Shown here in pieces: positions 6,087 through 54,590 of a DNA stretch of 64,000 nt (the stretch's first letter is position 1; the number at the start of each line of letters is the position of its first letter). Both the position numbers and the translations under genes were made by a program. Source of the DNA: Naegleria gruberi (lineage: Eukaryota); assembly GCA_000004985.1 (NCBI GenBank), contig GG738863.1. One strand, given 5' to 3'. Below the pieces are notes generated by a model. It had not been told where the DNA came from. It saw only the letters and a list, made by a program, of their open reading frames with translations, and searched no databases.

Positions 6087-6767
6087 TTACTTTTTCTTTT
6101 TCACATTTTCATTCTTTGAACTACAGCTGGAATTACCTCTCTTTTTGGTTGTTGAGGAATTTTTCTTTTCATTAATTGATGAGGATTCGCTTGGATAATT
6201 GACAGTTCTAAAGGTGAGTGAAATTCTTCGATCTCCCTCCAATAGGTTAGGTTCAATTCCATGTTTAAATGATTTTCTGGAAGATCCAGTCATCAGATAT
6301 AAGGAACGAGCTGGTAATTTAACTTGATGTTTTATATCCTTTTTTGTAAAGGTAAATGTTGAATCACATTCAAGTGAAAGTCCAAAAATGATTTCCTTGT
6401 AAGTTTTACGGTGGTCAAAGTGTTGGTCCAGAGAATCATCTGGCTTGTATTCGTTCACAAATATTTCAGTAAACTTGTCATCTCCTAAATAAGATTCATA
6501 TTGAGATAGATCAATTTTTGGAACATGTGTGGCAGTTCTTTCGAGAATTGTGGTACATAAATCTTTCAAAAATTGAGGAAGTGGTGTAATTTCATCAGGA
6601 ATGATATTGTACTTCTTGTCATGTTTTGGTCCATAAATTTGAATTCTTCTCTTTTTCGATCTGTTAAGAAACCAGAGCTGTTTCTCCAAGTTTTCGACAA
6701 GACTTGAAGCTTCTTCTGGGGTGAGAATGTCCTTGATAAGATAGAGTCCTTTAACTGTTGTTTCCAT
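6087..6767 (-). CDS. AlkB-family Fe(II)/2-oxoglutarate dioxygenase
   Basis: The 226-aa ORF has a YGPKH.Y. motif, an HxD iron-binding motif (HFDH), and the AlkB-typical 2OG-binding motif RISLTFR near the C-terminus. The C-terminal tail is K-rich. Confidence 0.55.
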   Translation of the reverse strand: METTVKGLYLIKDILTPEEASSLVENLEKQLWFLNRSKKRRIQIYGPKHDKKYNIIPDEITPLPQFLKDLCTTILERTATHVPKIDLSQYESYLGDDKFTEIFVNEYKPDDSLDQHFDHRKTYKEIIFGLSLECDSTFTFTKKDIKHQVKLPARSLYLMTGSSRKSFKHGIEPNLLEGDRRISLTFRTVNYPSESSSINEKKNSSTTKKRGNSSCSSKNENVKKKK

Positions 6768-6931
6768 TTTTTGTTTGTGTTTTTCAATTCAAAAGGCGAC
6801 TAGAATTTAAGTATTTTTAGTAGAAAAGTTCATCATCACAAACAAAACACTTTGAAGTTCTAGCAAACATTAGAACTCATAGTTATTAATTTCAAAAGAA
6901 ACTTAAATGGATGAAGTTTGTTATAAACTAT

Positions 6932-9900
6932 TTATTCATAAACTTCTGCAAATTCAGTTGCACTTCTACCAAATATTTCAGGGCTATACATTTCCTCAGC
7001 TTTTACACCTGGAATAACAAATGAGCCAATAGATGTAGCTCTGGCAAGGTAGGTAAACTCATGAGTACCTTCCCATAATAATGAACTGAATGCTTCCACT
7101 CTTTCATCTCTAATATTATGATGCTCGTACCAGATTGGATTCCACCAACACCACCAACGTCTTGTTCCTCTATTATTATTGGATCCAGTTCCACTAACAC
7201 TAGCAATAGCTGGGGTTCCTTTCAATTCTGGATTGATTGGTTCGAGACCAGCTGGTAAAAAGTCAACTAGAGCAACATGATATCTACGACTAGTATTTGT
7301 CATTCTCAACTTGATACGAACCAATTCTCCTGCCTTAAATCTCCAACTATTCTTTTCCTTATCAAATGTAACATGAGAAGGATTAGTGACGTGCTCATAA
7401 CTTCTTTGAACTTCGAAACCGTAATCCAAAGCGTCAACAAGTAAATTCTTTGGAGCATAATCCATACCAATTCTATAGTATAATCTTCCTTCCCTTGNAA
7501 TGTTTGTTCTCCACAATAATCTTCTCCAAGCCATGCGTTAACAACAAAATCTGGGGTAACTCCTTCAAAGACATTAAAGTAGGTATTGAGAGCAAGGAGA
7601 ATGAAAACGTTTTCCTGAGTATTACCCCATCTTCCCTTCTTCTTGTGAGCCAACAATCCCTTAACAATTTTTGGAATGAGGTGTGATTTTGGAGAGATAT
7701 TGATGAATGCTTCCAAACAAATACCGTCGGTTCTTCTATCACTGTGCAACATGATATGCTTGGTGGCCATTACATCTCCATAACTGGTGATAAAGTTTGC
7801 TGTTTGAGCAGTTTCATTAGCATTCTTATCCAAGTGTGTCATAATTTCTGAAACTGTGCTTGTTTCTTTCTTACCACTTGCAAGATAAATAGCAGTAGCT
7901 ATCCATGCAAGATATTCCATATTTCCTTGGAGTTTCTTTTCCTTATAGAGAGTTTCAGCTAATGACTTGGCATCAGATTCACCCAACAAGGCCAAAACAT
8001 AGTAAGCATAAGCTTTGATGGATCTCAAAGATTCTGGAGAATAATCAGTACAGTATCTTTCAATAGTTTTGAGGACTGGAATGAGTTTGGACATCATTGG
8101 TGCATTCAATGTGTAACCAGCAATTTTACAACGAGCCATGGCGTGACCAACATGGCAAGTAACGTAAGGAGACACCTCATAATAGCTAGAGTAGGACCAA
8201 TAGCCAAAACCACCATTAGGGAATTGTCTTGAAGCCAATGTAGAGAAATATCCATTGATTTTAGTGTCAATAGCATCTTTGGTTGGTATCTCTGGAACTT
8301 GGAAGGCATACAAAATATCCTTGAGGGCAACAATTGACAATATTCTACTAGAAATTTGTTCACAACATTCAAATGGATAGTTATACAAATAGAGGAAAGT
8401 GTCAGTGAGTGATGACAAGGCAGTAGAAGAAGTTGTAATCTTGAGACCACCAAATTGTGGGAAAACATTTTGAGGAGCCTTTACAGGTTGGAAAACTGAA
8501 GAATCTCCATCCATTTCACCATAAGTTGCAAATGCCTCAGTAGTAGCTGGTGTGAAAACTCTAATCTCCTTTTCTACAGCATCGGCAAAATTAATGCCAG
8601 GTGTAGCAATGGAAACACCAACTTGGAATCTGGCAATACCAACACGATCTGTTGACATTGGGAATCTCAATTCGGCTCTTCCCATAGCAGGTACTTTGAC
8701 CCTCAAACCCTTCTTTGAAGAATCCAAAAGAGCCAAGTTTGTGAAGTTAATAGCAGCATTGACAACAACATCAATTGGGACTTGACTTTGTAAAACACAT
8801 GTAAATTCAGCTCTGTCACCAAAGTTAAGGAATCTTGGAAGGGATGGTCTGATTGCCAATGGAAGTTGAGCCACCATAGATGATTCATGAATTCCAAAAC
8901 ATGAATCTCCTTTGATTGCAACAGCTGTAATTCTATACTTGGTCAAATTGTCAGGAAGTTTGAATGAAACAGTTGCTTTACCATGGACATCAGTTACGCT
9001 CTTTGGACTGAAAACTGCAAGAGGATTAAAGTTAGATCTGACAGAAATTGCTGAATCTTCTGGTTGGTCTTCCTCGCCCTGGGAAGATGCATCTTTACAT
9101 TTACCACCTCTAGCACAGCATTTACGACAGCACTTACAACATTCCCTGTCACAACAGCCAGAACAAGAAGCACTAGCACAACAAAGCAGTTCTGGTTGAT
9201 CTCCTTCGAATACAACTGAATCATAACTCTTTACAAAAAGGTAGCTTCTCAATGAGTATGGATTAAGAACTGGATAATTTCTACGAGTAAATGTATTAAG
9301 AGGATTAGAAATAGAATATCCTGTCAAGGAGAGAACAGCTTCATCAACTGCCACAATGCAGACTTCAGAATTTTGAATTGGTTCACCAGTGATTGGATCC
9401 TTAACAAGTACATCAATGAAACTTTCTGCTCCTGGAGTTAAATATTCCTTCTCAGGTTTGGTCTCAACAGTTAAGGTTCTAGTGATGTTGGAAACAGAAA
9501 TTTCACATTGACCAGAAGCATATGCAGGCTGTTTTGGCAAATTAGTAAGAACGGTACCCACTGCATCAACTCTTGATTGACTTCCTGCAACTTCAACACT
9601 AACATAAATATTAGGAATGCAATTTTTGGTAATGTCAATCTCAATTTCAGTACAACCGTCTTCTGGATCAATAGTTATTGGAATATGTTTGATCACATCG
9701 TCAAGTGATACAAGTGCAACACCTTCACATTTTCCATCAAGGTTAGATTGAATAAGAAGTTTAGCCTTATCACCAACTTGATATTCAGTCTTGTCTTTAA
9801 TGATGAGAAGGGTGTCCTTAGAAATTCTCTTGCCAACCTTTTCATCTCTTGTGGAACCACCTGTAATATACAAGTTAGTTCTTGATGAATTTGTAAGCCC

Positions 9901-12900
9901 AGTTTCAGGATCAACAATTTCGACTTTGAATGAATAACTGCCACCTTTTTCAAATTTAACAGGTACTTCAACTGGTCCGTCTTTAGATGAGGTCAAAATT
10001 TGTTCAAAAACTTGCACGGTTTCATCTACAAACCTGAATCCCTTCTTTACACTAACAGATGTGGTAGCTGTCAATTTCATTTGAATACCAGAGACTAAAT
10101 TACCATCGACATCAGATGTAACAAGGGATGCAGTTACAGGAATATTAGGTTTAACAAATTGTTTGCTAAATTTGATACCACAATAATACTTGCAAGGATG
10201 GACAAGGAATGAAGTACTCGAAGAGATTGTTTGTCTGTTAATATCTTGAACAGTAGATTCTATTGAGATAGTTACTGGTACCTTGTTAGGTCTTGCAGAC
10301 TCTGTAAAAGAAATAGCAATTTGATGTTCTCCGTTACCGTCTGTGGTACCTTCAAATGTGGTACTTCCTAAAACAGAGCCAGTACTACTACCGAATCTTC
10401 TCATTCTATAAAATCCCATGTATGGATCATTACCTTCTCCAAAAGTATAGGCGTGTTGGTTAGGAGGAGTATATGATGCAGACGTTTGCTTGATGGTATA
10501 ATTGCATTTTCCACCACAAATACCTCCACCAGAGTAGTATTCAGCCTTGGTAGTGCATACAGCAGAATTTCCATTCACAATATAATTACCAGCAGGAACG
10601 GAAGATGATGATTTGAATTCTGGAGTTCTGAATTCTTGTACCTTGAAGGAATGTGAGGTTGAGAAAGCAGTGAATGTAATGATATGATCTCCCAAGTTAG
10701 CATTATCAGGAACCTTAAAAGTAAAATCAAAGGTTCCAAGTTTTGAAATTTCAATATCTCCCTCACAATATTTTTGACCTCTGGCATCATGGACTGTATA
10801 GTGTGTTGTTTGTTCAGAAGGAAGAACGACAATAGGTCCAGAGTCTTGCAATTTGAACTTTCTGACGATACCCTTGATGGAAACAGTTTCATTAGGCTTG
10901 TACAATCCTCTATCGTTGTAAATATGAGCAACGGTATCTGTACTAAATTTTGAAGTGTATAGTCCAACATCTGGAATGAAACAAGAATCATTACCATGCT
11001 TGGCAATCAATTTGGAAGTACCTGCATGAACCTTATATTTTCCAATACCAGTCTCAGCGTCAGGAGTAACATGTGCATTTACCTTGATGAATTCCACATC
11101 TTTCTTAATAATACTACCATCGCTCAATGAGTTAATCCAGAAATATAAATGAGATGAATGAGAATCATATGAACAATCAAGGGCGATCTTTGTAGATTGT
11201 ATCCATGCACAGTATGTTGGACGATAGTCCCAATTTCCTTTCCAACTAGTTTTAGTTGGCTCAACAAAAACCATCAAGTGACCCAGATTTTCATTAGGGA
11301 ATTGAAGATATTGTGAGAGGTCTACCTGTGTTTCACATGGTTCATCTTTCTCTCCACTGATTGTCAAGGTAGTGTCTAAAACCATTTTTCCTGGGAATTT
11401 GTAACTATTGTTATAGGCACTATAGTTAAGAGTTTCACCAGAATAGATTTGAGGTTCTACTTGACAAACTTTAAATTGTACAGAGTCCATATTTACAGTA
11501 ACAAAAGAATAGGTTGGTTTGGTGTTCAAGGTTGGATCGAGTACCATTACACCAGTACCAAAAGCTTGTAAACTTTGACGAGCACTTCCAACTTGAAATT
11601 CAACAACTGTATCAGGAAGAGTTTGTCCCCAAACATCTACAATACCCTTAAGGAAAAACTTATAGGTTGTTCTACCCTTTGATTTGCCTCTGATTGTCAA
11701 ATAAGTTCCACTTGGATTCAATTCCATGTTTTCCAATAATGGTGAAACAGTAACCATAGACTCTAAAAGCTTATCAACATCAATAGAATTGGAGAAGATA
11801 ATAGTGAAAGGCTCCATTGGAGTTGAACCACCAGATGAACGATCTTTTCTAAATTCAGGATAAGTGTATACATGAATTACTGAATCTTTCAATGATGGAA
11901 GAGGGCCTTCTGTACCAACAACTCCCTTATTAATTGTAATATCAAAAGAAGCTCCAATAGAAACTGGATTATTTTGGAAATCAAAAGTAAACCACAAATG
12001 TCTAGATTCAGGAGCTGAAGAAAGTTTGGAAAGATAAGAGTTATACATGGATGAATGTTTCTTTTTCAAATTATAATCTTCCATCATTTTCTTAACTTGA
12101 TCTTGAAGGAGTGAATTTGAGGATTTTCCATCGAAAATCAAACTAGCCTTACGACCTGGAGTGGAAATAAATGGTAATACAGCACTTGGGTCAATCTCTT
12201 GATCAAACTCGGCATAAAATACAGGGAATTCATTAACTGGCATTGAGTGGCTATTTGGCAAATACTCTTTAACATAAAGTCTTGGTGTTTCGAATGTAAA
12301 AGAAAAATCTGATTTCAATGTGCCCCCATTTTGTGAGCTAGTTCCTTTCTTGACAGTAACTGTATACTTTGTAGACATGTCAAATCTATAGTTGGCTTCA
12401 TAGACTAATGTTTTGGAACCCAACCACTTGAATTTACCTCCCTTTTTTGGGAGTGGTGAAACAATAACAGGAACTGTCTCACTTTCAACACTATCAATGC
12501 TGGATACAGCAACCATTGGTTGAGAGAAGGTAATTGTAATGGATGGAACAGATCTATCTAATTCTCCTTCTGGTGAATATCTCAAAATGGTCAAATCAGA
12601 ACCTGAAAGCTGGGCTTCTTCTTCCTTCAATTCTTGTGGTTTCTCCAATTTAACTTGAGGTGGAAATTCAACTTGAATAGAGTCAGCTGTCACTGGTGCC
12701 TTTAAAGATTTTTCTCTACATTTACAAATATCATTTCAATCACAAAATCCATCAATTGTAAAACTACTTACCTCATGAAGAAATCTTTTTGATCAGTGTC
12801 ATCACTCTTAATTGCTGGTAATCTATTCAATAATCTGTTAGTTTCCTCCTCTGATAACTCCTCAATGGAGCATAATTTTGCTCCCGATTCTTCTTCTGAT

Positions 12901-19005: not shown

Positions 19006-20349
19006 TCATACCAAGACCCTCTCTTCACTAATTTGTACAGAATTCATTGAATGAACATCTGTTGCTGTATCAATATTGAGATAAATATTGGTATTAGTGT
19101 CAGAGGCACGAATGGTTCCATTATTTTCAACTCTTGAAATTTCAAATTGTGGAGGTGGTTCATTCATTGAAATTAAATGAAGTTTTTGAGTCTTTCCACC
19201 TTCAATTTCACAAGTTCCTAGAAATCGTATCGTACAAACTTCGTCCAATATTGAAGCTGTTGTTCCATCACAAATTATTCCACTCTCTAAATGATCGATA
19301 GCATAATAACAATGAGCAATAGATGAATTGATTAATTCCCCATACAATCCAAAATGTCTTCTAAAATCCGATCCAACACTAGCTCTGTAACCATAACCAC
19401 TTGCAAATCCAACACCATCGACCTCTAAATTCTCCCTATGAATTAGTTCTTTCAAACAGTGAATTACTAATGAAGGATTGGACTCTGCCATATGTCGTTC
19501 AAAGCTCAATATAAATTTTAGACTCTTTCTATCAAAGAACATATCAAGAACACAACAGTTATATTGCTCTGAAACAACTTGAATAGAATTGACAATATTA
19601 TTCTTTGTTGCNNNNNNNNNNNNNNNNNNNNNNNNNNNNNNNNNNNNNNNNNNNNNNNNNNAATTAATTATATTCATTAATTTAGCTGTAGACAGAGGAG
19701 TGTTTGTTCCGAAAGTTTGAAGAGGAGCCATTAATTGTTTCCTCTTTCTAATAGTTGCATTTACCTGCTTAATAATCCTTTTCTTTTGAATTTTTGAATT
19801 AGATTTGAACCATTTTGCATCCTTTACAGTGTCTTGCAGATCTTTCTTTTTAGCCATTAATTCCATAGTATCACTAGGAGAAGCATTTACTATTAATGAA
19901 TTTAATGGAATACATTTTGCTCCCAAAATTTTCAATTGATTCTTTTTGGAAGTAACCTTGTCAGCTTTACGTTTTAGAACTAGAACACTTCTTTGATTAT
20001 CATCATGAGCAATAATGGAATAGGTTTGATTTTTTCTACTTGCAATCAGTGTTTCGAATGGAACAGTTTCAATATGTTGTAATTCTTCCTTTCTGATTTT
20101 ATAATTTTTAACCTTTTTAATTTTGTCAATGCATAGGGCAACATATTTTCTCTTCAACCATTGAAATACTCTATTACAACAAAATCCTTGATGAATGTGT
20201 TTCTTTAATTCTTTGGATGCAAGATTTCTTCCTGTTTTATTCAATAAAAAAGCTCTGTACCAACGTTTCTTGTTGTGAGTTGTTTGACAGCAAACACAAA
20301 CAGTTCCTTTATCAATTAGTTGTGTTGATCGTGATGACAACTTACACAT
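19006..20349 (-). CDS. Hypothetical protein (ORF interrupted by a 50-N assembly gap)
   Basis: The 447-aa ORF spans the gap at 19612..19661. The N-terminus is Cys-rich (CVCCQTTHNKKRWY...CCNR). I recognise no confident family. Confidence 0.35.
   Translation of the reverse strand: MCKLSSRSTQLIDKGTVCVCCQTTHNKKRWYRAFLLNKTGRNLASKELKKHIHQGFCCNRVFQWLKRKYVALCIDKIKKVKNYKIRKEELQHIETVPFETLIASRKNQTYSIIAHDDNQRSVLVLKRKADKVTSKKNQLKILGAKCIPLNSLIVNASPSDTMELMAKKKDLQDTVKDAKWFKSNSKIQKKRIIKQVNATIRKRKQLMAPLQTFGTNTPLSTAKLMNIINXXXXXXXXXXXXXXXXXATKNNIVNSIQVVSEQYNCCVLDMFFDRKSLKFILSFERHMAESNPSLVIHCLKELIHRENLEVDGVGFASGYGYRASVGSDFRRHFGLYGELINSSIAHCYYAIDHLESGIICDGTTASILDEVCTIRFLGTCEIEGGKTQKLHLISMNEPPPQFEISRVENNGTIRASDTNTNIYLNIDTATDVHSMNSVQISEERVLV
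19612..19661. other. Assembly gap (50 N)
   Basis: A run of exactly 50 N. Confidence 0.99.
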
Positions 20350-20699
20350 TTTTTTCCCAAGTTTTTCTTTCTGACAGTTCTAGAGAAAATTAGAATAATT
20401 TGTGCAAATTTTATTTTTAGCAACCAGCTAAAAAAACTGAGCTGAAAATTCCTCATTGCTTTCTTTACCTTTTTTCTCAATAACCAGAGAGAGAACTGCG
20501 GAGAACTGCAAGATTTGGATTGTTTACATCAAATAATAGTGATAATGGTAAGATCAGTTTCTAACTCGTGTTTCTGTACGTTTCCAACAGAGTTAAAGTT
20601 AAGGTAAATTACGCTCAGAAACAGCTGGTAAATTTCCACTTTTTTCCATTATTTTTTAAAAAAAACACAAGTTTATGCTGTAGCAAAGGACATCCGATA

Positions 20700-21161
20700 C
20701 ACGAGTACCTCTAGAAAATGCTGGAAATGAAAAAATTAAAAAATATTTCATCACCAGCTATCGCATCATTTGTTTTAAACTCTCTAATTTATTTAAAATT
20801 AATATTAAATAATTAATTGATTATTAGATAATAGATAATGCCTCCTCGTAAGAAAGTAGAACAACAAACAAGTTCTTTTGCTTGTCTTGAAAATATTTCG
20901 GAACATGAAATTCAACAAATTGCTGTTAAAAAGAGGAGAGGACGACCAAAAACAAAGCCTTCTATTTATGCCGATTTTCCAATTGCTGATTGTATGGGAA
21001 GAAATTGGATTTTGAGTAATGAAAGTGAATTGAGAAGCAAAGTAGATTCATTCCGATTAGTGTGTTATAATATGCTTTGTCAAGACTATGCAAAGAAACC
21101 ATACTTTCCACACTTGTCGGATACCACTGAAATTTTGAGTTGGATTAATAGAAAGCATAGA
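20700..21161 (+). repeat. Near-identical duplicate of 17560..18045 (promoter plus first 108 codons of the EEP deadenylase gene), ending at an assembly gap
   Basis: By eye, more than 95% identical to 17560..18045, with small indels in the upstream AT-rich part. ORF 20838..21160 encodes the same MPPRKKVEQQTSSFACLEN...WINRKHR as 17728..18048, then runs into the N gap. Confidence 0.85.
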
Positions 21162-21211
21162 NNNNNNNNNNNNNNNNNNNNNNNNNNNNNNNNNNNNNNN
21201 NNNNNNNNNNN
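21162..21211. other. Assembly gap (50 N)
   Basis: A run of exactly 50 N. Confidence 0.99.
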
Positions 21212-22630
21212 GTTTTGCTTTCAATACCATACAGTACATTTCTGTTCATGAACAGGTAGAGAGCATTTGCAAAAGTGTAATGGAAGGAAACAGAGTCAAG
21301 TGGATGAGAAGAAATATCCCTCGAAAGTGATGTAACTTGAAATAAATTAGGTGATTCCTCATTAGCCCTCAAAAATTGCCTACACTTTTCAAATATATCA
21401 CCACTAATATAAACATTACCTTGTTTACACTCTTTCAACAATTCCCTAACCCTTAGTAAAACTTCCCCTCCGAAAATTCTCAACCATTGAGATCCAAAAC
21501 CTCCCAAATGATAGGAAGTACACTCACCCACATTAATAACACATTTCACCTCCAATGGTGTGTCATTTGATTTGTAAGTTTTCAAATTGGTCATGGTTTG
21601 AATTTTAATTCCACATTTTACAGCTGCAAGAATTGAATCTGTGAAAGTTCTATCCATCCTAGGTGAGTAGAATTGACAAATAATCAAATCTCCTTGAAAT
21701 TTTTCAATATCTCCACCCATTTCATATATTACAGCAATTAAACTAGTGTACACATAGTAGATATATCTTGATATTTCAGAAACGTTGCAAGTATCCTTTT
21801 CATGATAGAAGGAGTCCACAATTTTTGAAAATCCTTTCATTTCAATAAGTAATATACATGTTTCATAGGAAAATTCACTCACAGGTGAGAGTAACTTCAT
21901 CTTTTCCTCTTCCACTGGTTTGATAGATGAAGTAGAACCATTTTGCTTGTATTTCTTCCACAAATTAATTCCAGGACTTGATGATTTCTTCTTATTATTT
22001 ACCAAAGCTCCTCTTACTAGGTGATGAAGATCTACTATTAGAATCACTATTATTTACAACATTATTATTAGGGATTGGTGATGTTGGACCAGGTGGTAGT
22101 GAAGGAGAATGTGGACGGTCAGATCCCTTATTAGAAGCAGATCCAGTACTAACAGAGAGAAAACTAGAGAATTTACTCTCTGTATCGAGACCTTCATTGG
22201 AATTTGTTTTCTGAAGGTGATGTCCTAGCTTTACCTTATATTGTTTACCCTCGCCTCCATAATATATATATCGGAGGCAATATAGTAAATGTTGAGGAAG
22301 GAAGGAGGTTGACAATTCGAGATTTAATTCCTCCTGTGATTTGGCCTTGGAAGGTGATACAGATTGATAATTATTCAAGCCAATAAAGCTCACTCTAGCA
22401 TTGGGTATTCGGAAGGAGCTTGCCTTCTTCATCTCTGCTGAGGCTCTCACTTGAATATTCTCAAATTCCTCACTGGTGATGGAGGTTCTTGATAGCTTGT
22501 CCCTTCCAAATTGAAACTTGGGCGAGAATGTATTAAGGGAGTGATGGCCACCTTGTGTTGTTGTGATGGATTTGCTGAGAGAAATGTGATCACCGCCCTG
22601 CTTATGAGAAGAGCTACAGATAGCTCCCAT
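21212..22630 (-). CDS. Class III cyclase paralog (N-terminal region plus first cyclase domain), truncated by gap; possible pseudogene or partial copy
   Basis: The protein starts MGAICSS, an N-myristoylation consensus. It is collinear with the N-terminus of the downstream sAC-like gene: SFRIP, FLPQHLLYCL, ETCILLIEMKGFS, IYEMGGDIEKFQGDLIICQFYSP, AAVKCGIKIQ. A frame change between ORFs 21995..22630 and 21145..22047 indicates an intron or frameshift. The 3' part is lost in the gap. Confidence 0.6.
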
Positions 22631-22981: not shown

Positions 22982-25900
22982 CTACTGCTTAATTATCTTA
23001 TATCTTTCATTCAAAGATTGGATTGATTCGTGTTGTTCAATGTAATTTTCCATAAGATAATCCATATCTGAAATAATATCTGGAAGTTTGTCTTCTACAT
23101 ATTTCAGTCCTTTCGATATTAAATAATGATAGCAGTCGTACATGTCCAGAAGAATTCTCAACTTGACACCATGCGCTGATTGAGAAGAAACAAATTGCAG
23201 TGCATCAGAGTAGGATTTTTCAACATTAGGATAGCATTCTTCGAAAGATGCCTCAAGCAATGAGCACTTGATTAGAAGAAATCTGGATTGCAATCTCAGT
23301 ATTTCTCCTAATAAATTTTCTTGATGTGATGCTAGTGCATTCTTGAAGAGTGTCTCTGTATGTTCAAGATACGGAACATCAGTACCAATTTGGATACTAT
23401 CTAGGAATTCCAAATACTTGACCCGAGACTCTAAAATTGCATAATCGAATATTAAGCTTGGAGGTGCATAAATGTGAAGAGAGTTAAAGAGAGATTCCAT
23501 GTGATCAGCTTGTTCCCTTAACCGTTGCTCTTTCTCTACAATATTAATTCCAGACGTTAACTCTCTGCAAAATTGGACATAGGCAAGATAAAACTTGGCG
23601 CTTAATACTTGGGTTGGACTTGCCACAGTTGTTGAAAATATTGAAATGATGCTCATTCCTTGATTAGCTGATCTCTCTAGCTCATCCAATTGACCACTAA
23701 TTAATAAATAGTAGCAAGCAAATGAGTAAAAGAACATGTAAGAAGGGAGGTGAAGTCTGACCCTGCTCTGTTCAGATCCCAAAGTGTAGTATTTTGATGC
23801 ACTCTCATATTTACCAACAGACCACAAAGCCCGCATCGAGTAGGTACAAGATACAAGCAAAGCATCCCTTTTTCTGAACCTATTAATGGACTGTTGATGA
23901 TACTTGTCGGGATCGCTCAAATACTGATTGATAACATCTTCAGAGAAGAGAATTACCTTATTAAAATTACCCCTGGTGTTGTGAGTCATCATGCAAGATA
24001 CAGAACCAAACATTTGCTGTGTAGTATCTCCTATTTCTGTTGATAAATTAATGAGGTTTGAACTCAATACTATTGCTTCATCTGTCTTGTTCAAGTAAAA
24101 AGCCATGAACCATCTCTCAGATTCAATAGAAAAGATCAACTCTTTCTCTGATTCTGGGCAATACAGTTTTGCTTTGGTTAATGCTTCCTCACCAGTCGGC
24201 ATCAAATTTGCGTCAAACAAATTCTCAATAAATATTCCAAATTTGAGTAGACTCTTTGCAAGTAAGATTTTAACACTCAAAAAACTGAGACCCAAAATGG
24301 AAAAAGTTGAAGAAATTCGTGTTATCCCTTCAAATCTCTTTCTGGTAATATCAATCAGGGAGAGAACTGACTCGAAAACGTTCAGCTTTGTAACATCTAA
24401 TAGGTCGGTGTACTTGACTTCTTCATTTCCTTCCTTTTCTCCTTTCCACAATGTTACAATTTTCTCCAATATCGTATTAAATGAAACACAAAGATGCTTG
24501 AAAACAGAAGCTTCCTGCTCTTGGCTCAATAGAGTGATAGCTTTTGGAATTATAACACACGCCAATGCTAAATGAAGCATTTCCTCCTTTTCTACTGATC
24601 CTAGCGAGAGGGTTTCCTCTAAAGCAATCTTATCAAAATAGTGGCCTAAATGAACGGCGATTTCCTTAATATACCACGAGGATCGTTCTCTACTTTTGTG
24701 TCTTCTACATTGTTGCTCAATTGTCTTGATAAAGTGTTTGGCAAGAGACATGTGAAATTCTCTCTTTTGCTCTTTGGGAGTAGTGGAATACACAATCTGT
24801 AGCATCATGGAAGATTTGAATTTGAACGTTCTGTCCTTACTTGATGAACAAGCAAGAAAATGTTTACCCTTTGTCTCCTCAACCACTTCTAAAAACTGAT
24901 GACTGCCAACAAGATTCTTCAAAATATCTGATAATTTTCTGTCCTTTTTCACATTTGATTCCTTTGGGAATATTGCTTCAAGAGTCTCAAAATCGAATTG
25001 GATTCCAATCGAAGATGCAACTTTCAGAACAAGTTGAGAGTCAACATCCAATCTGTCAATCTTTTGTTGAAAGAACGAAGACATTGTGGCAGGCAATTCA
25101 ATCGTATCCATAGTCGTAAATTTAAACTTGAGGCAGCCATCTTCTACATAAGTTCTTCCATTTTCTTGTAAAAAGTGAAGGGCCATTGTTAAAAACTGTT
25201 GATTTCCCTCTGTTTTTTCGACGAAAATGTCTAAAACCTTTGGATCGACTTTTGAAGCATTAAAATAAAGCTTTAAGTATTCTTCACATTCAGACTTGGT
25301 GAACTCTTTAAGGTCGATTACTAAGTCAGCCTTAGCCTTCCACTCATCAAGCTCTTTTCTCTTCTCCGCCATTTGTGGTCCATCTGGAAGCTCGTTACAG
25401 GAAAGCAACAATACACAGTTGGTAATTCCTGGCTCAAGGTCCAAAATTTTTTTCGTAACAATCCTTGAATAGGGGTCAAACTGCATTGTAAAATGGAAAT
25501 CGTCATATAGTAGAAACCAAGGTTGTGCTGAATACCCCATATACATCCAAGAAATAGAAAGCAATCTAGCGAAAAGATCAGCAGCGATGGTAATTCTCTC
25601 CTCCTGATCCAGTTTAACACTATCTTTCGACTCTTTAAACTCGGTACCTACAACTGGGTTCAATAAGTATAAATTGTCACGATCTTTTTCTTCTTTGAAA
25701 GTTTCCAACATTATTTCTTCTCTTTGTTCTCTACTAATATTGTTGTAAAGATTTTCAACATCATTATAATCTAAATCCAATCCGTTCTTCTTATAAAAAC
25801 GTTCAGTAATGCTAATCTTCAGGTTTCCTAGATAGAGATAAAATGGAGTTTCGAACTCAATAGCTGAATTATAAACACAGGCAAGTTTTGATTTCAATTC

Positions 25901-27935
25901 GCTCACTAATCTTCTCAAAAGGTCAGATTTTCCAACACCATTTTCTCCTTTCACAAAAATTATCTTGGTCTTTGTTTTCTTACCCTGTTCTATTTCTTGC
26001 TGTTTTTCATTAACATATCCACAAATACTATCAAATATTTCCTCTCTTCCAATAGGATATTTGAGAGAATTCAAATGCTCAGAGCCACTGTAACTTTTCT
26101 TACCAGATGATTCAGAATGGTCTTCTGTCATAATTTGTGAAGGAGATTTCTTAATGTTATAATACATTTGAGTTGAAGAGATTGATGAGTCTTTGACCTT
26201 CCAAATTTTTATCAAATCTGATTTTCCCTTCACCTTGATTGGCTCTAGTGGTTCTATTGGAATACCCTTCAACATTTGAGCTGTCTCCTCTTCACATAAC
26301 ACAACTCCATCATTTTTTTCTGATTCCTTCATTAAACGGGCAGCCAAATTTACCTTATCACCATAAATAGTAAACTCCTTTCTATATTCTGACCCACTGA
26401 TACAGATTATTAAGGTTAAATAAATATAAACATACACATTTCCAATAAAACACTTTCCACTGGCAATTCCCAATCCAAACTTCATTCCTAGTTGAGATAA
26501 ATTGCCTGACAGTTCAATACCTGCCTTCACTGCTCTAATGGAATCACTGATATGACTAACAGGATAACCAAAAGAAAATACAAGAATAGTACCCTTTTCA
26601 TCCGACAACATGTTTGCAATAAAACCCTCATAAGTTTCCAATACGCCTTGAACGTTTGTTAAATATGTTTGATACACTTGCATTTCATCATCTTTTGTTT
26701 CGTACTTGTTTGTATCAATAATGGACAAGAACCCCACTGTGAGAGGTTTGACTTCATTGATCCATTCACTTTGTCCTGCATCTATCTTGTTTCTAACAGG
26801 TGGGCTAATAAATTTACGAAGTATTGGAATAAAGGTTGAGTTCACTGTTAGAATGGGTAATGATAGTCCAGTAATGGGCTCCCTTTTTGATGCCAGAGCT
26901 ACATACACATCTGCCTCTTTGATTTCTAACTTTCTACAAGTGATATAATTGGAACATTTTTCAAATGCTGGCCTGGTTATCACAACTTGTCCTACCAGAC
27001 TATTACCCAAAGCGGAGGACATTTCGAGAAGAGCTTGGCCAGAAGTGATTCGAAGCCAGTAATCATTCACTCCCAAATGGTGCGTCGTTACATATCCCAA
27101 AGACACACCACAATGTATCTGAAGTGATATGTTATCATTCACCTTGAAAGATTTCAAATATTCAGTCTGCTGAATTCGCAAGGCACATTGAACAGCCGCA
27201 ATTACACACTCAGCCAAAGTTCTATCCTTACGTGGGTAATGGAATTGACAAATAATAGCCTATAGATTTCATTCAATAAAAAAGTTCTTAAGCAACTTAC
27301 ATCTCCTGCAAATCGTTCGATATCTCCTCCAAACTTTGCATGTTAATACTTTGCGCAATTATCCTACTTACATCATAAATAAAGGCAATTAATGTCGTAA
27401 AATATTGATTAATATATTTAGTAAGAAGCTCAGCTCCATTAGGTTCTTTTGAAAGGCTCTCTGTTAAATTAGTAAATCCAGAAATGTCAATCATTAAAAT
27501 ACAGGTTTCATATGTTATATTACTAAGTGGAGACATTGTTGTTGACATTTCTTCCTCCAATGCCTTTGATTTCCTATCATTTACATTACTATTATTATTG
27601 CTCTTGTAATAGAGAGACTTGAGATTATACAACAAATGTTGAGGTAAATAAGAACAAATTATTTCCGCATTAACCTCCTCCGTTGTTTTTTTTCCATTTC
27701 CAAAAGGTATTGTTTTAAATCCCATCAAATTCACTCGGGGAGGAGGAAGTTTGAAAGAGTGTGCCTTACGAACCTCCACCACTTTCGTTTCTGACTCCGA
27801 GGAAGCATAAGAATCTTTTGATACTCTCCTTTCCGAATATCTAATTGATTTATGTTGATTAAAATCTTTTGGTGATTCTTGTTGATTAGGACTAACAACA
27901 TTCTCACTGCTGTTCAAGCTGCAAGCAGATCCCAT
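22982..27935 (-). CDS. Soluble-adenylyl-cyclase-like protein: two class III cyclase domains, STAND P-loop NTPase, long alpha-helical (TPR-like) C-terminal region; about 1600 aa
   Basis: Exon 1 (27360..27935) starts MGSACS, a myristoylation consensus, and encodes the cyclase C1 domain (ETCILMIDISGFTNL). A 33-nt micro-exon (FGGDIERFAGD) sits between introns of about 38 and 41 nt. The 4.2-kb main exon 22982..27217 continues C1 (AIICQFHYPRKDR...AAVQCALRIQ). It contains a second cyclase domain (IASGKCFIGNV...EFTIYGDKVNLAARLM), a Walker A motif (FVKGENGVGKSDLLRRL), and a very long helical repeat region. Confidence 0.8.
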
Positions 27936-35400: not shown

Positions 35401-38199
35401 TTATTTCTTCTTTTTGAAAAAGTTGACAAGTGTAATCTTGAAATTCTTCTTATTCTTCTTGTCGTCGTTAAATTCTGGGAAACAATTCTTTTCGAATACT
35501 ATGGCATTTCTTTGTTCTGGTTCGTGCTCGTTGTAGAATCCTTCCAGATCCAATTCATCAACTGCAGCTCCTCCATCCGTTCCACCACCATTATGGTGTT
35601 GCTGATGCTGTTGTTGATACATATTGTTGTTGTTAATATTATTATTATCATTGAAACCTGTATCAAACAGTTCATTGAATTGATCGAGAGAAGCTGGCGT
35701 GTTGGTACTGTTTCTACGACCAGTTCCTCCTCCAATACTTCTTCTGACCTTTCTCTGTTTTTCAATACTTCTTCTCTTATCTGAACTGTTGGATCTTCTG
35801 CTTGTTGCACTTCCATCTGAGCCACCACTACGGTCACTGAGGGCTGCTGGGGAGGTTGGTCTAAATTCATTATTGAAAGAATCAAAGTCATCTTCATTGT
35901 TTCTATCAATTGACTTCTTTCTTCTGTTAGTTGGCCCAGCAGAGTTGCTTCTCTTTGTTCTTCTTTGAATTGAGGCAGAGTTTTGTGAACTTGGAGAATT
36001 TGGTAAACTATTGAGAGAAACATTAGGACTTTGAACACTGGTTGGAGTGGTCACTGTTGGATTTGGAGGAGTTGATACTGAAGAACCATTAGGAGTATCT
36101 CCCGAATAACTCTTATAATTATTATCATTGGAAATTTCACTTCTGAAATTGTTAAAGAAATTGGTCCATGTGTTTCTCTTGGACTTGACATGAGATTGCA
36201 TCATTGGTGAACCTCCTTTAGCTTGATTCTTTTGTGCTGCATAATTCTCATAAATAAATGTAGTATTATTTGATCCAGCATTTGGTGGCATGCCATGGTT
36301 TGCATTGTTATTAACAGAATTATTCTTATTTGGAGAAGTAATTTGATTATTGCCTGACATGGATCTGTTACTGCCTTGTTGTTGATATTGTGAAATATTA
36401 CTCGATGATTGGAGTGATAAGGCCTGAATTTGTTGAGAAATTTCATTAACATTTACAATATTATTTTGAGCCATTGTGCTCTCAACAGTTGGATTAACAA
36501 TAACAGTTCTCATTTGTTGAGATTGATTACTCATCATATTTTGAGGTTGAATAATGATATTTTGAGGTTGATTATTGAATCCTCTGTTATTGGAATTTTG
36601 ATTCATCATTTGATTATTATTGTTATTCATTACTAAACCTCCACCGACCATGTTACCGTTATTATTATTGGAATTGTTGGAATTATTCATGCCTGACTCT
36701 AGGACTGGCAAGACAACAGAGAAGAGTTTTCTCTTCTGTTCATCTGACATGGATTGAACAAGAATCTTGGCCATTTGTTGCACTTCAGATTGGTTGACTT
36801 GTTGTTGTGGATTGAATTTTTCCAACCAAGTAGAGATCAAATTCTGGTGATCAGAACTCGAGGCCAAATAACTTCCTAAAACTTGAAACAGGGTATTATC
36901 AATTTGAGAACTGGCAAATGGAGTAGTGTCAACTTGAGCATTATTGGAGAAGATATTGTTATTTCCTGCCAGAGTTTGGAAGATGATACTTCCAAGTTGT
37001 TGTTGCTGTTGTTGTTGCACTTGTTGCATGCCATTATCTGCTGGTGCCAAAACTATGAAATTAGGTTGTTGTTGTTGTGGTTGTGATTGAGAATTGGAAT
37101 TGAAGATTTGTTGAGTATTGTTATTATTGACATTTGTAGCAACACCACCAAATGATGATGTTGATGATTGTGGTTGAGAATTGAGCAATGAGAGCAATTG
37201 ATAGAGATCATTATTTTGTGTTTGTGGTTGTTGTTGTTGAATGATGGTTTGTTGATTGCCAACTGGGAAGATAATGGTAGGTGCATTGTTATTATTGGAT
37301 ACAGTATTGAATTGATTATTGTTATCATTCATAAAGTTGGAAGTTTGACCATTGGTGGCAACAATATATGGTTGACCATTGATGATGACATTATTATTCA
37401 TCATGTTATTATTCATTGAATTATTGTTGGTATTAGTACCAAGAAAATCAAAATCTTCCATGTTGGAATTGTTATTCATTTGGAGGTTGAAGGCTAAACA
37501 TGCAATAATGATTCATGTAGTAGTTTAGGATAAACACATATTAGAATAAATTACTATAAATTACTTACCATCCAAAAGTGAGGTATCAATCGTATTAAAA
37601 CTATTATTACCAGCATTAATAGTTGTTGTATTATTATTAGTATTATTACCACCAAGTAACAACATTAAACTCTCATTAGTATTATTATTTCCATCGAAAA
37701 GGGAAAAATCGTTGGAATTATTCAAATTTGAAGGATTGATAATAAAAGTTGGTTGATTTTGATTTTGATTATTATTTGGAGAGGCAGCCAATTGAATTGA
37801 ATTATTAAATTGTTGTTGCTGATTATTATTGGCAGTCGAACCATTAATAATCATAATTGGTTGTACATTATTATTATTAGATGGTAATTGATAGATAATT
37901 GGTTGTTGTTGCTGTTGTTGTTGTCTGGGACTCAATTGATTTGGATCAATTGCAATGAAATTTCCATTTCCATTGTTGTTATTGTTTGTATTCGGTGTTA
38001 GGAACATAAAGTTATTATTATTATTGCCATTATTATTCATCATGTTATTGTTAGGAACAATGGTAGCACCCATACTATTGTTATTATTCGAATTATTCGA
38101 AGTATTATTATTATTGTTTATCAACATCATTGTAAACGGTTGAGTATTTGAATTGTTATTATTATTCATACTCGTAGAATTATTTTGCTGAAACATCAT
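35401..38199 (-). CDS. Asn/Gln-rich low-complexity protein (at least 900 aa, at least 2 exons), unknown function
   Basis: Exon 1 (37561..38199) ends at a GTAAGT donor whose stop codon lies inside the intron. A roughly 80-nt intron follows. Exon 2 (35401..37481) has long poly-N and poly-Q tracts and an SR/K-rich C-terminal region (RRKKSIDR...SRRSNSSDKRRSIEKQRKVRRS). Confidence 0.45.
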
Positions 38200-53299: not shown

Positions 53300-54590
53300 T
53301 TATTCCAAATTCTTCAATTCAACGGTACATCCAATTTTATCCTTCAAATGAATGATCATATCCTTAGTCATCTTATCCAAATTGTATTCTTCTTGCCAAT
53401 TCCACTTAGCTCTAGCATTGGAATCGTCGAATGCCTTTGGCCAAGAGTCAGCAATTGCTTGTCTGAAATCTGGCTTGTAGGTCACTTGGAATGATGGAAT
53501 ATATTTGAGAATAGCTTGATGGAGCATTGCTGGAGTCAATGAGAAACTAGTAATGTTAAATGTTCTTTGACCAGCTCTCTTCAAATCTTCATTAGTCAGA
53601 TCGAAAATGTACTTGACAGTGGCACGAATGCAATCACTCATGTACATCATTGGAAGAGGAGTATTTTCACTAACGAAACATTCATAAGTTTTACCATGGA
53701 GAGCATAGTAGAACATGAAAACAGCCCAATCAGTAGTACCACCACCCTATTTTTTACAATAAATTTTAAATAATTTCAATAATAATTAACATTACAATAT
53801 TATGTCAATATAATGATAAATATTTCAAAAATCAAATTCTACTTACAGGTTCAGACAAATAACTGATAATACCAGGATAACGCAAAGATCTAAAATCAAG
53901 ACCATGCTTATAGGCATAATATTCACCCATATGTTCAGCATAAACCTTACCAATACCATAAATAGTTGTTGGTCTTTGAATGGTGACATCAGGTGTCAAA
54001 TCGAGTGGAGTTGTTGGACCAAAAGCAGCAATTGAAGATGGAATAAATACAGAACAATTGTTTTCTTTGGAAACTTCCAAAACATTGTGAAGACCAACAG
54101 TGTTTAATTCCAAAGCTGGAATTGGATTTCTTTCAGCTGCAGCAGACAAAAATGCAGCATTGTGAATAATGTGAGTAATTTCTTCCTTTTTAACAATTTG
54201 TGAAAGTCTAGCCTTATTGTTTGCATCCACTGTAATTATTCACACAAAAATTCCATAAATGGTTCTTTTTAACACCAAGTTGACTAGAAAACTTACAAAA
54301 TACAAAAGGTTCTCCATTTTGGAGTGATTCCATTGATGGAAGAGTAACATCACTAGTTACAACAGATTCCTTTCCGAAACGATTTCTCAAAGCAGTCGAC
54401 AATTCAACACCTTTTTCACATTACAATTATTACAACAAATTCACACACATTAAAAACTCACCAATTTGTCCATTTGATCCAATCAACAATACTCTTTGAC
54501 CAAGAACATTAGTAGTCGAATAATTTCTAGCAGAAAAAGTATTAACACTCTTCAAAAGTGGTGAAATATTCTTTGAAATTCTCATTCCTA
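53300..54590 (-). CDS. TDH: L-threonine 3-dehydrogenase (NAD-dependent epimerase/dehydratase family), 4 exons
   Basis: The exons encode an N-terminal Rossmann motif (RVLLIGSNGQIG, about 54480..54590), then VELSTALRNRFGKESVVTSDV, then ...HNAAFLSAAAE...IAAFGPTTP...TIYGIGKVYAEHMGEYY...FRSLRYPGIIS, then GGGTTDWAVFMFYYAL...PMMYM.DC...AIADSWP..FDDSNAR. The sequence is collinear with mammalian TDH. Introns are about 70-115 nt. Confidence 0.85.

What the first reader, a model, noticed from the sequence alone, without database searches (positions are those of the whole stretch)
27218..27360. 33-nt micro-exon flanked by roughly 38- and 41-nt introns inside the sAC-like gene
The continuous ORF 27297..27935 terminates at a TAA that sits inside a GTAAGT motif. 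Two tiny introns restore collinearity with the paralog at 21212..22630. The junction reads IYD | FGGDIERFAGD | AIICQFHYP, against paralog IYEMGGDIEKFQGDLIICQFYSP. The first intron is 38 nt (GTAAGTAGG...CAAAG) and the second is 41 nt (GTAAGTTGC...CTATAG). The paralog lacks both introns. This points to intron gain or loss between recent duplicates, and to a minimum intron size near 40 nt in this genome.
Basis: seen in the sequence. Interest (0 to 1): 0.55.

Follow-up and report, generated by a model that had tools for sequence, protein, structure and literature searches.

The report
Missed catalytic micro-exon in Naegleria cyclase
A 33-base mini-exon between two roughly 40-base introns in a Naegleria gruberi adenylyl-cyclase gene looks real and encodes an essential active-site loop that the reference gene model leaves out, so this is a useful annotation fix of an ordinary kind of feature.

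Summary
The window is Naegleria gruberi nuclear DNA. The gene on the minus strand at 27935..22982 is NAEGRDRAFT_66608 ("FM146"), a cyclase related to soluble adenylyl cyclase (sAC).

- intron 1 is 27371..27334 (38 nt, GTAAGT..AG);
- the micro-exon is 27333..27301 (33 nt, FGGDIERFAGD);
- intron 2 is 27300..27260 (41 nt, GTAAGT..AG).

The 11 residues match human sAC residues 89-99 at 9 of 11 positions. They include the AGD loop with the metal-binding Asp99 and the Lys95 position, which is Arg here.

The reference protein model joins IYD directly to AIICQF through one 112-nt intron, so it lacks this loop.

Support for the micro-exon:
- The N. lovaniensis ortholog carries a 21-nt micro-exon in the same place. 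That annotation was made with RNA-seq input.
- The substitution pattern between the two species fits a coding sequence.
- A second N. gruberi-like allele has only two indels in 4.5 kb, and both fall inside the tiny introns.
- The motif occurs nowhere else in the window except in the intronless paralog.

Not supported:
- "Recent duplicates". The paralog is about 35% identical, and the tandem pair predates the split of the two species.
- "Minimum intron near 40 nt" is plausible but not proven here.

I had no transcript data, so inclusion in mRNA is inferred. One odd point: the intron positions differ between the orthologs by +7 and -5 nt.

The parts
27372..27935 (-). Exon 1 of NAEGRDRAFT_66608 (gene A). 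It runs from MGSACS... to ...LIAFIYD and contains the first metal-binding Asp (ILMIDISGFT).
   Evidence: ORF. Identical to the N-terminus of P0001. Aligns to human sAC from residue 40.
27334..27371 (-). Intron 1: 38 nt, phase 0, GTAAGTAGG...TTAAC...CAAAG. The acceptor has A at position -3, which is weaker than the other acceptors seen here.
   Evidence: It cannot be aligned to the N. lovaniensis intron. Its removal is required for collinearity with the homologs.
27301..27333 (-). Micro-exon: 33 nt encoding FGGDIERFAGD. It corresponds to human sAC 89-99, that is the C1 beta2/3 loop AGD with the metal-binding Asp99 equivalent, with Arg at the Lys95 position.
   Evidence: Residue roles are from PMC12250328 and PMC12867704. 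It is absent from the reference protein P0001.
27260..27300 (-). Intron 2: 41 nt, phase 0, GTAAGTTGC...CTATAG. It is 47 nt in a second allele, which has a TTAATA insertion.
26436..27259 (-). Exon 3: from AIICQFHYPRKDRT... through the rest of C1, the linker and most of C2. It includes 26906..26805, which the reference model removes as a 102-nt intron. That segment is in frame, free of stops and conserved as protein.
   Evidence: LRKFISPPVRNKID aligns to human LQKYVMESILKQID.
26397..26435 (-). Intron 3: 39 nt, GTATGTTTATATTTATTTAACCTTAATAATCTGTATCAG, inside C2. It is annotated in the reference model. It is 40 nt in the second allele, a change that would shift the frame if this segment were coding. 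N. lovaniensis has no intron here.
   Evidence: and 7 (a 13-residue insertion relative to human sAC if read through).
22982..26396 (-). Exon 4: end of C2 (RKEFTIYGDKVNLAARLM), a P-loop region (GENGVGKSD) and a long helical C-terminal region, ending in the stop codon.
21688..21720 (-). The homologous motif MGGDIEKFQGD in the tandem paralog (gene B). It is encoded without any intron.

Best explanation
The functional mRNA of N. gruberi gene NAEGRDRAFT_66608 is made by removing two separate tiny U2-type GT-AG introns: 27371..27334 (38 nt) and 27300..27260 (41 nt). This leaves a 33-nt micro-exon (27333..27301) in the message.

The micro-exon supplies FGGDIERFAGD, the beta2/3 hairpin of the first catalytic domain (C1). 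This stretch carries the second metal-coordinating aspartate (human sAC Asp99 equivalent) and the basic residue at the Lys95 position. Without it the C1-C2 active site cannot bind the catalytic metals.

The reference model splices exon 1 directly to exon 3 through one 112-nt intron. I read that as an annotation error.

What is shown: the sequence anatomy, the homology, the conservation, the orthologous micro-exon, and allelic indels limited to the introns.

What is inferred: that the exon is actually included in RNA; that each roughly 40-nt intron is recognised across the intron (intron definition), probably one after the other because the exon is only 33 nt; and that the protein is an active cyclase.
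For: -: with the micro-exon included, the protein aligns to human sAC (4oya/4clf) at E=4e-25. FGGDIERFAGDAIICQF lies opposite FGGDILKFAGDALLALW with no gap.
- in 33 bacterial and eukaryotic homologs, G97, G104 and D105 are invariant, and K101, F102 and A103 are at least 90% conserved. All six lie in the 11 micro-exon residues.
- in human sAC, Asp99 and Asp47 coordinate the metals, Lys95 binds bicarbonate, and AGD 97-99 is the C1 beta2/3 loop.
- the N. lovaniensis ortholog has two introns around a 21-nt micro-exon, giving FGGDVEKFSGD. That annotation used BRAKER1 with RNA-seq.
- By my hand count of the sequences, 9 of the 33 micro-exon bases differ between species. Four are synonymous third-position changes. 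The other five give three conservative replacements (I/V, R/K, A/S). The flanking introns cannot be aligned.
- a second allele (L002, 99.5% identical over 4550 nt) differs by 17 substitutions, 12 of them synonymous and 5 not. It has only two indels, both inside tiny introns 2 and 3. The chance of that is about (80/4543)^2, or 3e-4.
- the N. gruberi paralog P0003 has a 38-nt GTAAGT..TAG intron 1 nt away from the intron 2 position, so introns of this size at this site are normal in the family.
- the donors GTAAGTAG and GTAAGTTG match the other likely introns in the window.
Against: - No transcript evidence was available. No RNA-derived protein spanning the junction appeared in the protein searches.
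- Skipping the micro-exon also keeps the reading frame (112 nt out, and 33 is divisible by 3). The frame test therefore does not separate the two models, and the public model uses the skip.
- The intron 1 acceptor is CAAAG, with A at -3. The seven other acceptors seen here have C or T at -3, so some skipping to the stronger TATAG acceptor is conceivable.
- The intron boundaries are not the same as in N. lovaniensis, so the ortholog supports the existence of a micro-exon but not these exact junctions.
Confidence: 0.85

Rival explanations
1. Regulated or leaky exon skipping. Both mRNAs are made, and the skipped form (the public model) encodes a protein that lacks the Asp99-equivalent loop. That form would be catalytically dead and possibly regulatory.
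For: Skipping stays in frame. The intron 1 acceptor (AAAG) is weaker than the intron 2 acceptor (TATAG). Exon skipping has been detected in N. gruberi RNA-seq in general (PMC6142364).
Against: Nothing here is specific to this gene. The public model also contains a demonstrably poor in-frame 102-nt intron, and the sister gene P0003 has a mis-chosen acceptor. That points to predictor error rather than transcript evidence. With introns of about 40 nt, recognition across the intron favours inclusion (inference).
Confidence: 0.12
2. The public model is right. 27371..27260 is one 112-nt intron, and the FGGDIERFAGD-coding stretch is a non-functional relic inside it.
For: The deposited NCBI/JGI protein P0001 reads ...LIAFIYDAIICQFHYP.... 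That parse is GT-AG and in frame.
Against: A relic would not keep an intact frame, 9 of 11 identities to human sAC and every invariant residue, with mostly synonymous or conservative differences from N. lovaniensis, while the adjacent intron sequence cannot be aligned. A relic would also be unlikely to be flanked by its own AG acceptor and a perfect GTAAGT donor. The resulting protein would lack an essential catalytic Asp even though the gene is under purifying selection (12 synonymous, 5 non-synonymous).
Confidence: 0.03
3. A different parse. Intron 1 is read through as coding (…IYDVSRIIAQSINMQSLEEISNDLQE…), and a 79-nt intron 27300..27222 joins it to ...TLAECVIAAV.
For: This is the only other frame-preserving GT-AG combination with long open flanks found by the survey.
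Against: It destroys the alignment to every homolog. It deletes FGGD..FAGDAIICQFHYPRKDR and inserts unrelated residues.
Confidence: 0.01

Closest known systems
The micro-exon in the Naegleria lovaniensis ortholog C9374_002896 (P0002; locus L001 6814..6834)
   Same: Same gene by identity and synteny. Same protein loop (FGGDVEKFSGD). It is also a micro-exon bounded by two GT-AG introns.
   Different: It is 21 nt rather than 33 nt. Both introns are phase 1 rather than phase 0 and sit +7 nt and -5 nt from the N. gruberi positions. The introns are 134 and 98 nt rather than 38 and 41 nt, with AG|GT exon borders.
Mammalian soluble adenylyl cyclase ADCY10 (PDB 4oya, 4clf)
   Same: Tandem C1-C2 class III catalytic domains followed by a P-loop region and a long helical C-terminal region. 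The FGGDIxxFAGDA loop with the metal-binding Asp and the C2 motif KVNLAAR are both present.
   Different: By the alignment, Arg176, the bicarbonate switch, is Ser; Lys144 is His; and Lys95 is Arg. Mammalian-style bicarbonate control is therefore not predicted. The N-terminus MGSACS looks like a dual-acylation signal, so the protein may be attached to a membrane rather than soluble (inference).
Micro-exons and minimal spliceosomal introns in other eukaryotes with short introns
   Same: A coding exon far shorter than 51 nt, flanked by introns close to the lower size limit of the species and carrying strong GTAAGT donors.
   Different: Nothing categorically different. I found no earlier description for Naegleria in the searchable literature.
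N. gruberi paralog 'guanylyl cyclase' P0003 (gene on L003)
   Same: Same full-length architecture. It has a 38-nt GTAAGT..TAG intron beside the same AGD codons, and it is also mis-annotated.
   Different: It has no intron 1, so no micro-exon. Its intron is phase 1, 1 nt downstream of gene A's intron 2.

Membership tests
U2-type GT-AG spliceosomal intron (both flanking segments) | GT at the 5' end and AG at the 3' end, with a donor matching the species consensus | tested here: met
   The donors are GTAAGTAG and GTAAGTTG. The acceptors are CAAAG and TATAG. The other likely introns in the window and in L003 start GTAAGT or GTATGT.
U2-type GT-AG spliceosomal intron (both flanking segments) | Removal restores the reading frame and collinearity with homologs, while reading through gives a stop | tested here: met
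   Unspliced RNA hits TAA at 27299..27297.
U2-type GT-AG spliceosomal intron (both flanking segments) | Evolves as non-coding sequence (free indels, no conservation) | tested here: met
   Intron 2 has a 6-nt indel and intron 3 a 1-nt indel between alleles. There are no indels in 4.4 kb of exon. The introns cannot be aligned with N. lovaniensis. Intron 1 itself shows no allelic difference, which is uninformative.
U2-type GT-AG spliceosomal intron (both flanking segments) | Excised from RNA | not testable with these tools
   No RNA reads were available. Public data exist under PRJEB23822.
Coding micro-exon (internal exon of 51 nt or less) | Short internal segment bounded by an acceptor and a donor, in frame, encoding conserved residues | tested here: met
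   33 nt, 9 of 11 identities to human sAC, containing 3 invariant and 3 nearly invariant family positions.
Coding micro-exon (internal exon of 51 nt or less) | Present as a separate exon in orthologs | tested here: met
   N. lovaniensis has a 21-nt micro-exon, though with different boundaries.
sAC-type (ADCY10-like) class III nucleotidyl cyclase | Two class III catalytic domains (C1, C2) in one chain | tested here: met
   Pfam PF00211 matches in two stretches (E=2e-11, above the cut-off). Human sAC C1 aligns to 143-303 and C2 to 346-525.
sAC-type (ADCY10-like) class III nucleotidyl cyclase | Both metal-binding aspartates in C1 (human Asp47 and Asp99) | tested here: met
   IDISGF lies in exon 1 and FAGD in the micro-exon. 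This feature is met only if the micro-exon is included. The public model P0001 fails it.
sAC-type (ADCY10-like) class III nucleotidyl cyclase | Bicarbonate-site residues Lys95 and Arg176 | tested here: not met
   By the alignment, Lys95 is Arg (conservative) and Arg176 is Ser. This feature defines mammalian regulation rather than the fold. Many non-mammalian sACs also lack it.
sAC-type (ADCY10-like) class III nucleotidyl cyclase | C-terminal P-loop NTPase (STAND/AAA_16) plus a helical or TPR-like region | tested here: inconclusive
   AAA_16, NACHT and ATPase_2 hits at 622-807 have E of 6e-4 to 2e-3, all below the Pfam cut-offs. A GxxGxGKS motif is present. The homologs found carry PF13191 and TPR domains.
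sAC-type (ADCY10-like) class III nucleotidyl cyclase | Cyclase activity | not testable with these tools
   Needs an enzyme assay.

The most novel reading that the evidence does not exclude
The catalytic-loop micro-exon marks a spot where intron positions have moved. Within one genus, homologous introns sit at four nearby but different places around the same 11 codons:
- N. gruberi gene A: positions 0 and 0 (the reference positions);
- N. lovaniensis ortholog: +7 nt and -5 nt;
- N. gruberi paralog P0003: +1 nt, and no intron 1;
- paralog B: no introns, in both species.

If these reflect true intron sliding, or repeated loss and regain at one site, this would be an unusually clean and closely spaced natural example of a process whose very existence is debated.

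A second, more practical reading: the 2010 N. gruberi annotation may systematically mishandle introns of about 38-41 nt. That would inflate its reported 203-bp mean intron length and truncate conserved domains in many genes.
Probability: 0.3. Interest if true: 0.5.

Novelty: new member of a known kind. Interest (0 to 1): 0.3.

Why it matters
The public protein for this gene, UniProt "FM146", lacks the loop that carries an essential catalytic aspartate. From memory, I believe the FM label comes from the flagellar-motility gene set of the 2010 genome paper, which I could not read here. Anyone judging from the database entry whether Naegleria has an active sAC-type cyclase would call it dead. The corrected model restores a complete catalytic core.

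The sister gene P0003 has a similar error: a 38-nt intron was extended to 68 nt, which removes AIICQFCNRK. In gene A the model also removes a conserved 34-residue stretch as a 102-nt intron. Three bad intron calls in two genes suggest that tiny introns and micro-exons are under-called across this reference annotation. That would affect the published intron statistics and domain inventories for an organism often used to reconstruct early eukaryote gene structure.

The shifted intron positions between the orthologs are a small but concrete data point for the debate over intron sliding versus intron gain.

Tried and rejected
- Origin of the introns by duplication or from a repeated element. I ran local alignments of intron against intron, within and between species, and of each intron against 430 nt of flanking coding sequence. 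None scored above shuffled controls, so there is no evidence for this.
- More species for mapping intron positions. Two scans of the JGI metagenome contigs, one with the exon 3 protein and one with a three-sequence alignment, gave no confirmed relatives. No N. fowleri ortholog appeared in the protein searches.
- Transcript-derived evidence. No protein spanning the spliced junction turned up in the 5.8-billion-protein collection. The only extra hits were genomic ORF fragments, P0121 and P0122.
- The reference loci for P0001 and P0003 are not on record. A metagenome-derived N. gruberi-like strain (L002, L003) stood in for them.
I relied on the residue-level alignment to the solved human sAC instead.
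- Alternative acceptors for intron 1 (GGAG, GCAG) and the 79-nt alternative intron all break the frame or the homology, so I rejected them.
- Literature search for Naegleria micro-exons or Naegleria sAC found nothing relevant.
- I did not define a branch-point consensus. TTAAC-like motifs occur in introns 1 and 3, but intron 2 has no clean YTRAY.
Full report
**Identity of the locus.** The window is Naegleria gruberi nuclear DNA. A translation of the minus-strand gene at 27935..22982 is 97% identical over its full length to NCBI/JGI protein NAEGRDRAFT_66608, which UniProt calls "Uncharacterized protein FM146" (1566 aa, P0001). The next best hits are a N. lovaniensis protein (P0002, C9374_002896) and a second N. 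gruberi protein named "guanylyl cyclase" (P0003). After these come more than 2000 bacterial and eukaryotic proteins that combine a class III cyclase domain with AAA_16 and TPR domains. Pfam finds the cyclase catalytic domain twice, and finds weak P-loop NTPase matches below its thresholds. Solved human soluble adenylyl cyclase (sAC, ADCY10; 4oya, 4clf) aligns at E=4e-25 over both catalytic domains, C1 and C2. "sAC-like" is therefore a fair description of the architecture.

**The observation.** On the minus strand the anatomy is as follows:
- Exon 1 ends ...ATT TAT GAT at 27372.
- A 38-nt segment follows, GTAAGTAGG...CAAAG (27371..27334).
- A 33-nt segment follows that translates to FGGDIERFAGD (27333..27301).
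- A 41-nt segment follows, GTAAGTTGC...CTATAG (27300..27260).
- Then comes GCT ATT ATT TGT CAA TTC..., which is AIICQFHYP.

The ORF 27297..27935 listed mechanically ends at a TAA that is bases 2-4 of the second GTAAGT. Removing both segments gives an uninterrupted reading frame. The tandem paralog encodes IYEMGGDIEKFQGDLIICQFYSP without interruption. Every sequence statement in the finding is accurate. Only the quoted coordinates (27218..27360) are slightly off the true span (27371..27260).

**Is it more than chance?** Two GTAAGT motifs 71 nt apart are not remarkable, since the hexamer occurs 15 times on this strand. The peptide is what matters. A six-frame scan for 11-mers with at least 7 of 11 identities to human sAC residues 89-99 (FGGDILKFAGD) finds only the micro-exon (9/11) and the paralog's motif (8/11). 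Twenty shuffles of the window gave none. In an alignment of 33 homologs from bacteria and eukaryotes, G97, G104 and D105 are invariant, and K101, F102 and A103 are at least 90% conserved. All six lie within these 11 residues.

**What the micro-exon encodes.** Counting along the alignment, the 11 residues correspond to human sAC F89-D99. The numbering is checked by K144, which lands where the literature places it. According to PMC12250328 and Table 1 of PMC12867704:
- Asp99 and Asp47 coordinate the catalytic metal ions.
- AGD 97-99 is the C1 beta2/3 loop.
- Lys95 is one of the two bicarbonate-binding residues.

In N. gruberi the Asp47 equivalent (ILMIDISGF) is in exon 1. The Asp99 equivalent and an Arg at the Lys95 position are in the micro-exon. 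The C2 motif KVNLAAR is present. Arg176, the mammalian bicarbonate switch, is Ser here, so mammalian-type bicarbonate control is not predicted.

**What the public model does.** I mapped P0001 back onto the window. The reference model uses three introns:
- 27371..27260 (112 nt), which swallows the micro-exon, so the protein reads ...LIAFIYDAIICQFHYP....
- 26906..26805 (102 nt).
- 26435..26397 (39 nt).

The 102-nt "intron" is in frame and free of stops. It encodes YVALASKREPITGLSLPILTVNSTFIPILRKFIS, which is conserved in N. lovaniensis, in P0003 and, at its C-terminal end, in human sAC. It is almost certainly a false call. The 39-nt intron is real. Reading through it inserts 13 residues into a conserved C2 strand, and a second allele carries a 1-nt indel there.

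**Comparative evidence.** The N. lovaniensis locus (L001, PYSW02000017.1) is syntenic. The P16-Arc gene and a 937-aa gene lie upstream, and an ortholog of the in-window paralog lies downstream. P0002 is closer to gene A (48.6% identity) than to P0003 (36.0%), while A and P0003 share 40.7%. That places P0002 with gene A as its ortholog.

Mapping P0002 onto L001 gives this structure:
- exon ...TAT GAA TTT GGA G;
- intron 6680..6813 (134 nt);
- micro-exon GTGATGTCGAGAAATTTTCAG (21 nt, 6814..6834);
- intron 6835..6932 (98 nt);
- exon GT GAC GCT CTC ATT TGT...

The same loop is therefore carried by a micro-exon in a second species, whose annotation was produced with BRAKER1 using RNA-seq (PMC6125883). 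By my hand count of the sequences, the two micro-exon coding sequences differ at 9 of 33 bases. Four are synonymous third-position changes. The other five give three conservative replacements (I/V, R/K, A/S). The flanking introns show no similarity above shuffled controls. This is the pattern expected of a coding exon embedded in non-coding sequence.

**Population evidence.** An ENA metagenome assembly (ERZ929261) contains a contig, L002, that is 99.47% identical to window 27774..23232. It differs by 17 substitutions and exactly two indels. One indel is a 6-nt insertion inside intron 2, which becomes 47 nt. The other is a 1-nt insertion inside intron 3. The chance of both landing in these 80 nt out of 4543 is about 3e-4. 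In the corrected coding sequence the substitutions split into 12 synonymous and 5 non-synonymous. That fits a gene under purifying selection rather than a pseudogene.

**The sister gene.** Contig L003 from the same sample carries the gene for P0003. It has no intron before the motif, and YIYSYSGDIEKFAGD is contiguous. One 38-nt intron, G|GTAAGTAGAATTCTTTTCCTTTTCTATAAGAGTTGTAG|CT (L003 3816..3853), lies 1 nt downstream of gene A's intron 2 position. Using that acceptor gives FAGDAIICQFCNRKGQNKSLKELV, which is collinear with all homologs. The public P0003 model used an acceptor 30 nt further on and lost AIICQFCNRK. In both full-length sAC-like genes of N. gruberi, the reference annotation therefore damages the C1 core at an intron of 38-41 nt.

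- "Recent duplicates" is not supported. The paralog's C1 is about 35% identical to gene A. N. lovaniensis has the same tandem pair, and its B-type copy also has no intron at the motif (GGDLERFDPEELVCQF). The intron presence/absence difference between the paralogs is real but old.
- "Minimum intron size near 40 nt" is plausible. The lengths seen are 38, 41 (47 in the other allele), 39 (40 in the other allele) and 38 nt in two genes. The other likely introns in the window are 53, 56, 75 and 100 nt. The published mean for the N. gruberi annotation is 203 bp, and the N. fowleri study set a 30-bp mapping minimum (PMC8296547). One window cannot establish a genome-wide limit. The errors found here would themselves inflate the published mean.

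**Mechanism.**
- Shown: the anatomy, the coding constraint and the non-coding behaviour of the flanks.
- Inferred: each roughly 40-nt intron is recognised as a unit across the intron, as is usual where introns are short. A 33-nt exon leaves little room for two spliceosomes at once, so removal is probably sequential. This rests on general knowledge of splicing and was not tested here.
- The intron 1 acceptor (CAAAG) has A at -3, whereas the seven other acceptors seen have C or T. Some skipping to the TATAG acceptor of intron 2 is therefore conceivable. That would yield the in-frame, catalytically incomplete isoform which the public model happens to represent. I give this about 0.12, and 0.85 to constitutive or predominant inclusion.

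**An unexplained point.** The intron positions around these 11 codons are not conserved. Relative to N. gruberi gene A, the N. lovaniensis introns lie +7 nt and -5 nt (both phase 1, at AG|GT, inside the Gly codons of FGG^D and FSG^D). The P0003 intron lies +1 nt. The B paralogs have none. No alternative parse reconciles these positions. Whether this reflects intron sliding or loss and regain cannot be decided with two species. I found no trace of a duplication origin.

**Comparison with what is known, and verdict.** Micro-exons and near-minimal GT-AG introns are well-known kinds of feature. An orthologous micro-exon is already annotated in N. lovaniensis. What is new is narrow. This particular exon is missing from the N. 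gruberi reference protein, and including it restores the catalytic aspartate loop of an sAC-type cyclase. I rate it a new member of a known kind, with interest about 0.3. Most of that value lies in the annotation correction, the hint that tiny introns are systematically mis-called in this reference genome, and the shifted intron positions.

Noticed in passing
window 26805..26906 (minus strand): The reference model NAEGRDRAFT_66608 removes this 102-nt, in-frame, stop-free segment as an intron. It encodes 34 residues conserved in N. lovaniensis and P0003, and partly in human sAC. It is probably a false intron.
   Followed up: yes
L003 3816..3883 (gene of N. gruberi P0003): The public 'guanylyl cyclase' model uses a 68-nt intron. 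A 38-nt intron ending at 3853 restores the conserved AIICQFCNRK. This is a second annotation error at a tiny intron in the same gene family.
   Followed up: yes
L001 6680..6932 compared with window 27371..27260: The two introns that flank the micro-exon lie +7 nt and -5 nt away in N. lovaniensis (phase 1 rather than phase 0). The P0003 intron lies +1 nt away. This may be intron sliding or intron turnover, and its cause is unresolved.
   Followed up: partly
window 27918..27935, 22613..22630; P0002, P0003 N-termini: All four family members begin MG[SA]xCS (MGSACS, MGAICS, MGSGCS, MGASCS). This looks like an N-myristoylation plus palmitoylation signal, so these 'soluble' cyclase homologs may be anchored to a membrane, possibly the flagellar membrane. 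This is inferred from the sequence only.
   Followed up: no
window 19006..22630 (minus strand), paralog B; L001 13030..16184: The tandem paralog is much shorter and has no clear P-loop or helical region. It has Glu at the first metal-binding Asp position (LLIEMKGFS), and in N. lovaniensis it lacks the second Asp motif (RFDPEE). It may be a degenerate, non-catalytic cyclase-like protein.
   Followed up: partly
window 19612..19661 and 21162..21211; also 7498: Two runs of exactly 50 N interrupt paralog B, and there is a single N at 7498. These are presumably assembly gaps. Paralog B's structure cannot be fully read from this window.
   Followed up: no
window 12716..12771, 37494..37568, 53747..53846, 56810..56862 (all minus strand): These are likely frame-restoring introns of 56, 75, 100 and 53 nt with GTAAGT donors and YAG acceptors. 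They came from a mechanical survey and were not checked against homologs.
   Followed up: partly
window 26397..26435 compared with L001 7765/7766: The 39-nt intron in the C2 domain of N. gruberi is absent from the N. lovaniensis ortholog. This is another intron presence/absence difference between the two species in the same gene.
   Followed up: partly
L001 8969..9143 and 9657..9742: The N. lovaniensis model P0002 has introns with unusual donors (GTTTTC, GTAGTT). One of them replaces about 66 residues that are coding in N. gruberi. These may be annotation errors in that genome too.
   Followed up: no
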